Part shown: one piece after another, positions 8,459-37,390 of the stretch
Position numbering within the stretch: position 1 is the stretch's first letter
Layout of the letters: the number at the start of each line of letters is the position of its first letter
Source of the DNA: the human T2T-CHM13v2.0 reference genome, Homo sapiens
Assembly (NCBI RefSeq): GCF_009914755.1
Contig: NC_060935.1
Direction: 5' to 3' (one strand)
Length of the DNA: 64,000 bases
Notes under the pieces: model-generated
Databases searched by the model: none
Seen by the model: only the letters and a program-made list of their open reading frames with translations
What the model was told of the DNA's origin: nothing
Program-made: the position numbers and the translations under genes

Positions 8459-9583
8459 CTGGGAAAAAAAGTATATATACCACTTAATGGAATAATGAAA
8501 AGATCAAAGAATTTTCCTTCAGAAGGACTTCATGTATATTCTAAGAGCTGTCTTAACCATCAATGTCAGACAGAGAAACATCTGCCTCCTTTTAAGTTCT
8601 TCTGGTGATACAACTTTAATTAAGATAAAAAAGTTTTAAATATTTAAAAGACTCAATTACTGCTAGTACTCAATGTTGAAATGACAATAGCATACGTTGA
8701 CAAAGGAAAAACGACTTGATGAGATCACCCTATCTGAAACTATGTTACAGACTGTTTCAAAAATAAAGTCACCATTCCTGGGTATCTTCTAATGAGGATT
8801 CAGAAGAATTTTATGAGCAGAGAAGTAAAAGTATCTGTGATAAATGTCTTGCTTTTCTGCTTGTAATAGCTTATAACAAAATTTATTTACTATGGCAGCA
8901 TGGAAAATTCTGTACTCCATCAACATGTGTAATTTTTTAATACTGTCTATGTAACATGCAAAACATAGATCTGTGAACTTGACAAACCTCACATATCTTA
9001 AAGAGTTTTGTTACAAAAAGTCTGTTTTTTACTGCCATCTTGATAGTACAAATTACAAATCGAGTCTCCTTCCTAGCCATATCAGAAGGTTCTGAATTCC
9101 CTGGGGATTCAGTAACTTACACCTCTGCAGTTCCTGGAATAGTTTTCAAGGCTATGACTAACCAGTGAAACAAAGATGAAAACTATCCGGTGACTCACAA
9201 AAGGCAAGTAACCCCTCAGTAGTATCAGGACGTGTTTTCTGAAATTGCAGATCTCCCGATCTCCCGAGCCAAGTGCTCCTCCCCATCCTCTGAGCACTTC
9301 TTTCCACACCCTTCCTGCAAAGTCTGGTGTAATGGTGAGGGCATAGCTCTTTTGTTAGGAATCCAATCTACAGTCCCTTCCCAATTTTGAGCAGGTAATC
9401 TAGCTAAAACCATTCTTTCAAAATGGCAGACTACCTGTGCTGCAGGTCACTTCTGGGGACAATTTTATGAGTCATTTATAAACCCTCTGTAATCAGCATC
9501 AGTGGAAGGAGACCAGGGTGCAGACCCACTTTACAATTTACTCTCATTTAGAGCTTACACAGAACAGATTCTTCTAGTGTTTC

Positions 9584-9874
9584 CTTTTTTTTGAGACAGA
9601 GTCTTGCTCTGTCCCCCAGGCTGGAGTGCAGTGGCGCGATCTCGGCTCACTGCAAGCGCCGCCTCCCAGGTTCACGCCATTCTCCTGCCTCAGCCTCCTG
9701 AGTAACTGGGACTACAGGTGCACGCCACCACGCCCGGCTAATTTTTTTGTATTTTTAGTAGAGACGGGGTTTCACTGTGTTAGCCAGGTTGGTCTGGATC
9801 TCCTGACCTCATGATCCGCCCTCCTCGGCCTCCCAAAGTGCTGAGATTACAGGCTTCAGCCACCGCGCCTGGCC
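9584..9874 (-). mobile_element. AluY
   Basis: poly-T head; AluY diagnostics (ggttcacgccattc). Confidence 0.92.
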
Positions 9875-10446: not shown

Positions 10447-10608
10447 TTTTAAACTTGCTTTTATCCAAATCTTCCACATGGTCCTCCCCAATTAAAATCT
10501 TGGCAGCAACTTCTAGGCTTACTATCTGAGGCGTTGACACCAAAAACAGCATCACAAATTTCTGGCTCATTACCCTTAAAGACTTGTCTTTGCGGCTGTT
10601 TACAGAAG
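10447..10608 (-). CDS. E2F8: E2F8 exon 6 (DBD2 N-half, [19 protein letters not shown]...KSKFK)
   Basis: ctaaag|CT acceptor, A|gtaagt donor; 162 nt. Confidence 0.97.
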
Positions 10609-10830: not shown

Positions 10831-11145
10831 CTGCCCGAAATTCCACTCCAGGGAGTTCCACAAAACACATGTCTGGGTGTCCATTTGGGCCAGTGTTTGA
10901 TTTGATGATATGATCCTCTATACTGTAACTCTTAATAAAGTCAAACTCTTGCTCATATTCTTTCTTTTTGATCATCATAATCTGCTCGGCGTACTTATTC
11001 TCCTCCCCGATGCTCTTCAAGGTGCCAAGGGTTTTGTTGAGATTGTGTCGCCCGTGCCAAGTGTACCTGTTTTTGGCGAGGCGGCTCACCATATGTAAAC
11101 TCTCTAGGACGTTCACGATATCGTAAATGCGTCGACGTTCAACAT
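10831..11145 (-). CDS. E2F8: E2F8 exon 5 (DBD1 C-half, [16 protein letters not shown]...)
   Basis: tgtag|AT acceptor, G|gtgaga donor; 315 nt; matches ORF 10817-11116. Confidence 0.97.
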
Positions 11146-11454: not shown

Positions 11455-11766
<312 letters not shown>

Positions 11767-15667: not shown

Positions 15668-15981
15668 AAAATTATCTTAAAAAGAAATTCAGTCTCCAAA
15701 CATGTCAAATGCCCTTTCTGAATTCCAAGTTGTTCAAGAATCCTCAGAAATGTTGTAATGAAACTAACGAATTTTTGAAGAGGGGTAGGTTTGCCCCTTT
15801 ACACTCTTTCTAGTTTTTAATGATTTGGTAGCTGTCTCAGACATAAAGAGAGAAAAGGTATTTTTAAGAATAATAAAATTTGTTAGTTTCATTACAACAT
15901 TTCTGAGGATTCTTGAACAACTGGAATTCAGAAAGGGCATTTGACATGATTGGAGACTGAATTTCTTTTTAAGATAATTTT
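15668..15981. repeat. long inverted repeat: arms 15668-15775 and 15875-15981, 99-bp spacer
   Basis: the arms are reverse complements with only 2 substitutions and one 1-bp indel. Confidence 0.95.
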
Positions 15982-16193
15982 CATTTTTTAAACTATATTA
16001 ATTAAATTAGTATATATTTTAAACTATATATTTTTGAAACTATAAGATAAGGTTCATTTTTTCCAGGTCTTTACAGAGGCTAACCAAGGTTGTGGCATTA
16101 AGAAAACACATTGGATAGGGAAAAATTATGGAGTTAAATCAGGATGATACTGAATTTAAAATTGCAATGATGAATACTGAAGTTATAAAGTAC

Positions 16194-16208
16194 CTTTTCG
16201 TTCTCCAT
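16194..16208 (-). CDS. E2F8: E2F8 exon 2, coding part (MENEK); whole exon ~16194-16317
   Basis: agaATGG strong Kozak context; donor AAG|gtac; acceptor tttctttaag|G at 16317. Confidence 0.95.
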
Positions 16209-16634
16209 TCTGTAAATTCCTCATACATTTAGAGTTTAAAAATGAAAAATCTGGAGTTCCTCCCCAAATCCCGATGGTTCAAGTAGTCCAATCAATTGTA
16301 CTAAAAGTTTTAATATCCTTAAAGAAAAAAGGAAATTGAAAAAGTTAGAGAAAAACAAGAACCAAAAGATCTGTTGAAAATTCCTTCACGGACAAGAGGC
16401 TACGGAAACAAAGCCTAACGAAAAATGACAAACTAGATTTACATTTTATTCTCGACCAGAGATCGCCCCACTGAGCGGAGAACGCCAACAAATGCCAGTA
16501 AATTCCTTCAGCAAACGGATCGGCGGTCCTAAGACTTCAAGCAACCCACGGAATTTCTAGTGACAGCCCTCTCCCATCTGTAGAAAAGGCGAGCCATTCT
16601 CCGGACCCCAGCGAATACTTTAGGAAGCACCCAC

Positions 16635-36414: not shown

Positions 36415-36721
<307 letters not shown>

Positions 36722-36742
36722 TAATTTTTAAAAAATACTTGA

Positions 36743-37390
<648 letters not shown>

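What the first reader, a model, noticed from the sequence alone, without database searches (positions are those of the whole stretch)
15668..15981. Near-perfect 107-bp inverted duplication of non-repeat sequence in E2F8 intron 2
15668-15775 and 15875-15981 are reverse complements differing by 2 substitutions and one 1-bp indel (~97%), with a 99-bp spacer. I recognise no transposon in it and see no TSD. The pre-mRNA would form a ~107-bp AU-rich dsRNA stem starting ~210 nt after the exon 2 donor. That is long enough for ADAR, Dicer/Drosha or PKR, and it sits next to the exon that holds the start codon. The high arm identity means either a recent template-switch duplication or ongoing arm-to-arm gene conversion or selection. 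The spacer could also flip as a recurrent micro-inversion.
Basis: seen in the sequence. Interest (0 to 1): 0.8.

Follow-up and report, generated by a model that had tools for sequence, protein, structure and literature searches.

The report
Single-copy inverted duplication in E2F8 intron
A 108-base stretch of E2F8 intron 2 is present a second time, flipped, 99 bases away; it is most likely a one-off DNA copying error that gives the unspliced RNA a long hairpin, with no sign so far that it does anything.

Summary
Arms 15668-15775 (108 nt) and 15875-15981 (107 nt) are reverse complements with 2 substitutions and a 1-nt indel, around a 99-nt spacer.

- **Not a transposon family.** Whole element, arm, spacer, a 991-bp region and two 30-32-nt arm words matched only this locus in the 3.1-Gb assembly. 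Two repeat controls gave 8,391 and 15,728 candidates.
- **Sharp edges.** The outer flanks are not complementary, and I see no target-site duplication.
- **Junction asymmetry.** The 27 nt before the right arm resemble the right arm's own last 26 nt (0 of 2000 shuffles). The left junction shows nothing. This suggests the right arm is the inserted copy.
- **Origin.** It fits a short-range template switch of the 3-2-1-4 type, at the top of the published size range.
- **RNA.** Both strands fold into a ~105-bp stem that persists in the whole intron.

Age, polymorphism, RNA editing, small RNAs and any effect on E2F8 could not be tested; no other vertebrate genome or expression data were available. 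My verdict is a new member of a known kind, probably neutral, of modest interest.

The parts
15668..15775 (.). Left arm, 108 nt. Probable template (original) copy. Keeps a CpG at 15768-15769 and has one extra A at 15727/15728.
   Evidence: alignment. (found only here and, reversed, in the right arm, across the whole assembly).
15776..15874 (.). Spacer, 99 nt, unique sequence. Has a small internal GGGG/CCCC hairpin and only weak self-complementarity.
   Evidence: single copy. (internal hairpin in the folds). (spacer halves: 81 of 1000 shuffles as good).
15875..15981 (.). Right arm, 107 nt, reverse complement of the left arm. Probable inserted copy.
   Evidence: (bracketed by an imperfect direct repeat).
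15848..15874 (+). Last 27 nt of the spacer. Matches the last part of the right arm (15952-15977) at 20 of 27 alignment columns, including 1 gap. Proposed site where the copying strand returned to its original template.
   Evidence: score 12.5, 0 of 2000 shuffles as good. The mirror test at the left junction was reached by 1984 of 2000 shuffles. Seen from the other side as I5.
15952..15977 (+). End of the right arm (26 nt) that resembles the spacer end. It is the second half of the imperfect direct repeat bracketing the right arm.
16194..16317 (-). E2F8 exon 2, holding the start codon (ATG at 16208-16206). Its donor lies 212 nt upstream of the stem in the RNA.
   Evidence: Hub annotation; sequence read; intron coordinates.

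Best explanation
This is a local, single-copy inverted duplication, not a mobile element.

**Origin (inferred).** During replication or replication-coupled repair, the growing plus strand had copied the left arm and the spacer. At about 15874 it switched template and copied the left arm backwards, from 15775 to 15668. It then returned to its original template, helped by the likeness between what it had just made (the end of the right arm) and the place it had left (the end of the spacer). In the four-point notation this is a 3-2-1-4 template switch with a 2->3 fragment of about 107 nt. The arms have since picked up one CpG transition, one transversion and one 1-nt slip in an A-run.

**Consequence (predicted from folding, not observed).** Both transcripts that cross the site carry a ~105-bp AU-rich stem with a ~99-nt loop. 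These are E2F8 pre-mRNA on the minus strand and the CSRP3-AS1 primary transcript on the plus strand.

**Most likely fate (inferred).** The stem is promiscuously edited by nuclear ADAR when the genes are transcribed, and is then degraded with the excised intron. I expect no dedicated function and no effect on E2F8 output.
For: **Shown**
- Arm identity and geometry.
- Only self-matches in the 3.1-Gb assembly for the 314-nt element, the 108-nt arm, the 99-nt spacer and a 991-nt region, with 1 first-look candidate each.
- Two arm words of 30 and 32 nt, allowing up to 3 mismatches, occur once forward and once reverse, with 0 hits for the reversed controls.
- The same tool finds interspersed repeats at 81-87% identity. 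Two masked stretches of the window gave 8,391 and 15,728 candidates, of which 40 each were scored.
- No complementarity beyond the arms (628 of 1000 shuffles as good).
- Asymmetric junction likeness: 0 of 2000 shuffles at the right arm, 1984 of 2000 at the left arm.
- The other 14 of 16 inverted pairs (>=40 nt, within 2 kb) in the window are 73-93% complementary. They lie in three repeat-rich clusters. Four of the five arms I probed carry the same Alu-type stretch at 36-40 of 40, while this repeat scores 5-9 of 40.
- The stem forms on both strands: -185.7 kcal/mol (plus) and -173.3 (minus). In the fold of all 1974 nt of intron 2, 105 of 107 right-arm bases pair with the left arm.

**From papers (passages read)**
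- In great apes, template switches of types 1-4-3-2 and 3-2-1-4 are the majority and make single inverted repeats. The 2->3 length has median 12 and maximum 128 (PMC7954356).
- Template switches made over 6,000 hairpins in primates, enriched in introns among those that became microRNAs (PMC10710096).
- Non-repetitive predicted dsRNAs number about 2 per Mb in human (PMC11838218 section 9).
Against: - No outgroup or population sequence was available. That the right arm is the derived copy, and that the event was a single step, rests only on the junction likeness. That likeness can equally be read as an older short inverted repeat (I5).
- I saw no microhomology at the first switch (15874 to 15775) in the present sequence.
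- At 107 nt the copied piece is about nine times the published median.
- The event is absent from the two held supplementary tables of PMC7954356 at chr11 19.236-19.241 Mb. My hg38 coordinates are recalled, and that method may not score a ~107-nt insertion.
- The genome search may miss families more than ~25-30% diverged.
- Neutrality is a default, not a result. High arm identity could also reflect conversion or selection.
Confidence: 0.55

Rival explanations
1. The structure is the same, but it was made during repair of a double-strand break near 15874/15875 rather than at a moving fork. A resected 3' end snapped back or invaded nearby, copied the left arm, and rejoined through the spacer-end/arm-end likeness. 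Candidate pathways are microhomology-mediated break-induced replication or polymerase-theta end joining with a templated insertion.
For: The bracketing imperfect direct repeat is what a homology-guided rejoining would leave. PMC8755829 (passages) argues that break repair explains inverted-repeat-associated microinversions better than fork switching when the repeats are imperfect.
Against: Templated insertions at repaired breaks are, from my knowledge and not from any call, mostly a few to tens of bases. Nothing in the sequence separates this from a replicative switch.
Confidence: 0.2
2. This is a functional long hairpin kept nearly perfect by selection or by arm-to-arm gene conversion. It could be a dsRNA platform in the E2F8 pre-mRNA (binding ADAR, Staufen or DHX9) that tunes splicing of the start-codon exon, or a source of small RNAs.
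For: - Very stable stem that persists in the whole-intron fold.
- 74 paired adenosines per strand, 43-44 of them with a 5' U or A neighbour.
- Only 212 nt from the exon 2 donor.
- Arm identity higher than any Alu pair in the window.
- Template-switch hairpins in introns have become microRNA genes (PMC10710096).
Against: - No Rfam family reaches its curated score. The best is 60.6 bits against 139.7, and the top hits are MIR-named microRNA precursor families with long hairpins (plant families by my recollection), matched by shape.
- The stem is about three times the ~35 bp preferred for a microRNA precursor.
- One of the two substitutions breaks pairing on both strands (A/A). The other breaks it on the E2F8 strand (C/A). 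So there is no compensatory pattern.
- No gene or functional element is annotated here in the hub table.
- Two literature searches found nothing on it.
Confidence: 0.1
3. This is a relic of a non-autonomous DNA transposon (a MITE) with ~107-bp terminal inverted repeats.
For: The architecture fits: long terminal inverted repeats around a short core, 314 bp in total, AT-rich.
Against: - No second copy in the assembly by six searches, although repeat controls are found in thousands.
- No target-site duplication at the outer borders.
- Human DNA transposons are tens of millions of years old (my knowledge), so their two ends should differ far more than 2-3%.
Confidence: 0.04
4. This is an assembly artefact: a chimeric fold-back read carried into the consensus.
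For: Long-read libraries can contain fold-back chimeras (my knowledge).
Against: A fold-back artefact would give a perfect palindrome with no spacer, or a tiny one. Here there is a 99-nt unique spacer and three arm differences, one of them a typical CpG decay.
Confidence: 0.02

Closest known systems
Short-range template-switch mutations of the four-point model (Loytynoja & Goldman 2017; Walker et al. 2021, PMC7954356), type 3-2-1-4
   Same: A reverse-complement copy of a nearby stretch is placed within a few hundred bases of its source in one step. This creates a single near-perfect inverted repeat with sharp borders in an intron.
   Different: The copied piece is ~107 nt, against a median of 12 and a maximum of 128 in the published great-ape set. 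The ancestral state has not been seen. The event is not in the held supplementary tables at the recalled coordinates.
Template-switch-born hairpins and young microRNA genes in primate introns (Monttinen et al. 2023, PMC10710096)
   Same: An intronic hairpin with perfect or near-perfect pairing, created at once and transcribed with its host gene.
   Different: Those hairpins were selected with stems of 30-55 bases and a central loop. This stem is ~105 bp with a 99-nt loop, no microRNA is annotated, and no Rfam family reaches threshold.
Non-repetitive intramolecular dsRNAs of the human dsRNAome (Andrews & Bass 2025 preprint, PMC11838218) and long near-perfect duplexes (Barak et al. 2020, PMC7006430)
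   Same: A predicted rod-like duplex inside a protein-coding gene's intron and not built from interspersed repeats. Pairing of about 97% puts it among the rare highly paired predictions: 31,017 of 5,134,754 exceed 96%.
   Different: At 107 bp it is below the >300 bp class discussed as MDA5 ligands.
Inverted Alu pairs (IRAlus), the usual source of intronic dsRNA in human
   Same: An intronic inverted repeat that should fold in the pre-mRNA and attract ADAR.
   Different: There is no Alu sequence in it. It is single-copy, its arms are a third of an Alu in length, and it is far better paired: 97% against 73-93% for the repeat pairs in this window.
MITEs and other palindromic non-autonomous DNA transposons
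   Same: Long terminal inverted repeats around a short core.
   Different: It is single-copy, has no target-site duplication, and its arms are too alike for the age of human DNA transposons.

Membership tests
Short-range template-switch mutation (four-point model) | The descendant sequence holds a reverse-complement copy of a stretch lying within tens to hundreds of bases | tested here: met
   Arms 15668-15775 and 15875-15981, 99 nt apart, with 2 substitutions and 1 indel.
Short-range template-switch mutation (four-point model) | The copy is absent from the ancestral (outgroup) sequence and appears in one step | not testable with these tools
   No other vertebrate genome is held; the genome search reports that the window's assembly has no relatives here.
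Short-range template-switch mutation (four-point model) | Length of the copied (2->3) fragment is within the observed range | tested here: met
   ~107 nt against a published median of 12 and maximum of 128 (PMC7954356, passage). It is in range but extreme.
Short-range template-switch mutation (four-point model) | Sequence likeness at the switch points that could guide the jumps | tested here: inconclusive
   The return switch has a 20-of-27 likeness between spacer end and right-arm end (0 of 2000 shuffles). For the first switch I see none in the present sequence. The ancestral junction is unknown.
MITE / non-autonomous DNA transposon | Many dispersed copies in the genome | tested here: not met
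   Only self-matches. Repeat controls gave 8,391 and 15,728 candidates. Very old families (>25-30% diverged) might escape.
MITE / non-autonomous DNA transposon | Target-site duplication directly outside the terminal inverted repeats | tested here: not met
   The left flank ends ...TTTGGTAA and the right flank starts CATTTTTT... No shared 2-10-mer at the borders.
MITE / non-autonomous DNA transposon | Match to a curated repeat consensus (Dfam/Repbase) | not testable with these tools
   No repeat library is on hand.
MicroRNA precursor or other Rfam family | Reaches the family's gathering score | tested here: not met
   Best hit MIR2606, 60.6 bits against 139.7. All 4 hits at E<=10 are below their thresholds.
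Inverted Alu pair | Arms are Alu sequence | tested here: not met
   An Alu-type 40-mer from the window scores 5-9 of 40 on the arm, spacer and flanks, against 36-40 of 40 on four Alu-type arms.
Non-repetitive long intramolecular dsRNA | A predicted duplex of >=25 bp within one transcript, not overlapping annotated repeats | tested here: met
   A ~105-bp stem, with longest uninterrupted helix of 40 bp on the E2F8 strand and 47 bp on the plus strand. Single-copy by genome search. The repeat annotation itself was not seen.
Non-repetitive long intramolecular dsRNA | Evidence that it forms in cells (clustered A-to-I editing, dsRNA pull-down) | not testable with these tools
   No RNA data available. 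One literature search (E2F8, A-to-I, editing site, intron) gave 1 paper, on pig embryos.

The most novel reading that the evidence does not exclude
An ape-lineage template switch created a ~105-bp near-perfect hairpin 212 nt downstream of the donor of E2F8's start-codon exon. It has since been kept almost perfect by conversion or selection because it acts in cis. It might bind ADAR or other dsRNA-binding proteins, or feed a Dicer-type pathway, linking transcription of a cell-cycle repressor (and of its antisense lncRNA CSRP3-AS1) to splicing efficiency or small-RNA output. It would be a lineage-specific regulatory dsRNA born in one mutational step and about three times longer than the hairpins known to have become microRNAs.
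Probability: 0.07. Interest if true: 0.6.

Novelty: new member of a known kind. Interest (0 to 1): 0.3.

Why it matters
If the origin holds, this is a clean and unusually long example of a template-switch inverted duplication in unique human sequence. Its size lies near the upper limit of what has been catalogued, and one junction still shows how the copying strand may have found its way back. Such events are the proposed raw material for new hairpin RNAs.

It also places a well-paired ~105-bp duplex in the pre-mRNA of a cell-cycle regulator. That makes it a convenient natural non-Alu substrate for studying editing or the handling of intronic dsRNA. On present evidence there is no reason to think it changes E2F8 biology.

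Tried and rejected
- **Rfam.** Only 4 sub-threshold hits, all to MIR-named microRNA precursor families with long hairpins (plant families by my recollection). I rejected them as matches of shape.
- **Transposon family.** Six genome searches found only the locus itself. I rejected this reading, with the caveat about very old families.
- **Remnant of a longer, decayed palindrome.** The outer flanks show no complementarity (628 of 1000 shuffles as good) and the spacer halves only a weak one (81 of 1000). Rejected.
- **20-nt direct repeat across the right border.** 15970-15989 versus 16043-16062, 18 of 20 matching. It is borderline (52 of 1000 shuffles as good) and sits in AT-rich tandem-like sequence, so I drew no conclusion.
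- **Dating from arm divergence.**
  - Rates are assumed from my own knowledge, and no gene conversion is assumed.
  - 2 substitutions in 106 sites give 9.4 My (95% interval 1.1-34) at 1e-9 per site per year, or 18.9 My (2.3-68) at 0.5e-9.
  - Leaving out the CpG site gives 4.8 or 9.5 My.
  - This is too wide to place the event on the primate tree.
- **Walker et al. supplementary tables.** No chr11 event at 19.236-19.241 Mb in the 2 held files. This is uninformative, because my hg38 coordinates are recalled and the method may not score a ~107-nt insertion.
- **Closed sources.** Earlier findings of this scan were not open.
- **Spacer flipping by recombination.** This was not testable. PMC8755829 (passage) notes that recombination between inverted arms needs the middle to loop, which is hard below the ~145-bp persistence length. 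A 99-bp spacer is therefore a poor substrate, though a template-switch inversion remains possible.

Full report
**1. The observation**

The stretch read contains the repeat as described. The repeat finder gives two abutting pieces, 15668-15727/15922-15981 (60 nt, 98%) and 15728-15775/15875-15922 (48 nt, 98%). A gapped local alignment joins them into one pair, a 108-nt left arm and a 107-nt right arm.

The arms differ at three places:
- an A/A mismatch (15700 versus 15949);
- a G/T mismatch (15769 versus 15881);
- one extra A in a short A-run of the left arm (15727/15728).

At the G/T site the left arm has CpG and the right arm TpG. That is the commonest kind of change in human DNA and suggests the right arm lost the CpG. 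The spacer is 99 nt, and GC is 29-34% throughout.

The fold energy is far outside chance:
- RNA: -175.7 kcal/mol against -64.1 +/- 5.3 for 100 shuffles.
- DNA: -120.8 kcal/mol against -28.4 +/- 4.1.

The placement is right. By the hub annotation, exon 2 (16194-16317, minus strand) starts the protein (ATGGAGAACGAAAAG) and ends at a GT donor. The stem begins at intron position 213 of 1974.

**2. Is it a repeat family?**

I searched the window's own 3.1-Gb assembly with six queries:
- the 314-nt element;
- the left arm;
- the spacer;
- a 991-nt region around them;
- two arm words of 30 and 32 nt, allowing up to 3 mismatches.

Every search returned only this locus, plus the other arm on the opposite strand. 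Each DNA search produced a single first-look candidate.

As controls, two stretches that the hub lists as masked repeats gave 8,391 and 15,728 candidates. The 40 scored in each case were copies at 81-87% identity. So the tool does see interspersed repeats of that divergence. It may miss much older families, and no Dfam library was available.

Within the window, 16 inverted pairs of >=40 nt lie within 2 kb of each other:
- Two of them are the halves of this repeat.
- The other 14 are 73-93% complementary and sit in three repeat-rich clusters.
- Four of the five arms I probed carry the same Alu-type stretch (36-40 of 40). The fifth scored 19 of 40.
- This repeat and its flanks score 5-9 of 40. 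The name 'Alu' is from my recollection of the sequence.

The outer borders carry no target-site duplication.

**3. Anatomy and likely origin**

Complementarity stops sharply at the arm ends. The 150 nt outside on each side are no more complementary than shuffles (628 of 1000 as good), and the spacer halves only weakly so (81 of 1000). That fits one event better than an old, long, decaying palindrome.

The two inner junctions are not alike:
- The last 27 nt of the spacer (15848-15874) match the last part of the right arm (15952-15977) at 20 of 27 columns, and 0 of 2000 shuffles reach that score.
- The mirror comparison at the left arm is reached by 1984 of 2000 shuffles.

The right arm is thus bracketed by an imperfect direct repeat. 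I read this as the trace of a template switch:
- The growing plus strand left its template at about 15874.
- It copied the left arm backwards from 15775 to 15668.
- It returned where its new 3' end resembled the place it had left.

In the four-point notation this is type 3-2-1-4. Walker et al. report that 3-2-1-4 and its mirror 1-4-3-2 are the majority patterns and generate single inverted repeats (PMC7954356, passages). Their copied fragments have a median of 12 nt and a maximum of 128, so this one is in range but extreme.

The same likeness can be read simply as an older short inverted repeat between the start of the left arm and the end of the spacer (I5). I see no microhomology at the first jump. 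A break-repair version of the same copying (for the argument) cannot be told apart from sequence.

**4. Age**

Assuming no conversion between the arms, and rates of 0.5-1e-9 per site per year (my assumption), 2 substitutions in 106 sites give about 9-19 My. The 95% limits run from about 1 to 68 My. Without the CpG site the estimate is about 5-10 My.

This is compatible with an ape- or hominid-lineage event but does not place it. The held supplementary tables of Walker et al. list no chr11 event at 19.236-19.241 Mb. Those coordinates are my recollection of E2F8 in hg38, and their method may not score a ~107-nt insertion.

**5. What it would do**

Two transcripts cross the site, E2F8 (minus strand) and the lncRNA CSRP3-AS1 (plus strand, hub annotation). 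Both would carry the stem:
- Energy: -173.3 kcal/mol on the minus strand and -185.7 on the plus strand.
- Longest uninterrupted helix: 40 bp and 47 bp respectively.
- Persistence: in a fold of the whole intron, 105 of 107 right-arm bases pair with the left arm.
- Adenosines: each strand has 74 paired adenosines, 43-44 of them after U or A.

From established knowledge of ADAR, a duplex of this length and pairing is a substrate for promiscuous editing.

How it compares with known classes:
- It is long enough for PKR, which needs about 30 bp (PMC11838218 section 7).
- It is well below the >300 bp discussed for MDA5 (section 10).
- As an intronic structure it should not reach the cytoplasm.
- It does not look like a microRNA precursor. 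No Rfam family reaches its threshold, and the preferred stem is about 35 bp (PMC10710096).

Neither substitution is compensated. One breaks pairing on both strands and the other on the E2F8 strand. None of the functional ideas could be tested here.

**6. Comparison with what is known**

The structure belongs with template-switch inverted repeats and with the sparse class of non-repetitive predicted dsRNAs:
- These average about 2 per Mb, with median lengths of 75-144 bp.
- 96% of predicted dsRNAs within protein-coding loci are intronic.
- 31,017 of 5,134,754 predictions are more than 96% paired (PMC11838218 sections 7, 9 and 10).

Long near-perfect duplexes are depleted even in pre-mRNA (PMC7006430, passages). 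That makes a 97% stem noteworthy but not new in kind.

Two searches for this locus in print found nothing relevant:
- E2F8 with 'inverted repeat' and 'intron': 3 papers, none about it by listing.
- E2F8 with A-to-I terms: 1 paper, on pig embryos.

**7. Verdict**

This is a real, single-copy, sharply bounded inverted duplication. It was most likely made by one template switch and is most likely neutral. It is a new member of a known kind.

The decisive test is an alignment of the orthologous intron in other primates, which these tools could not supply.

Noticed in passing
window 36421-36724 and 36747-37050: Two Alu-type copies in inverted orientation, 304 nt each and 90% complementary, separated by only 22 nt. 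Closely spaced inverted Alus are reported to be unstable and rare (my recollection). This pair lies in the intergenic / CSRP3-AS1 intron region.
   Followed up: partly
window 9578-9869 and 11459-11750: An inverted Alu-type pair, 292 nt and 90% complementary, lies in the introns on either side of E2F8 exons 10447-10608 and 10831-11145 (hub annotation). This is the arrangement that favours back-splicing into a circular RNA.
   Followed up: no
window 15983-16045: Directly to the right of the repeat lies an AT-rich run with three copies of a 16-nt unit (100, 94 and 88% alike). The local sequence is prone to slippage, which may bear on why a copying error happened here.
   Followed up: no
window 15970-15989 and 16043-16062: A 20-nt direct repeat (18 of 20) whose first copy spans the border between the right arm and its flank. 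It is borderline against shuffles (52 of 1000 as good). It could be a later small duplication or chance in AT-rich sequence.
   Followed up: partly
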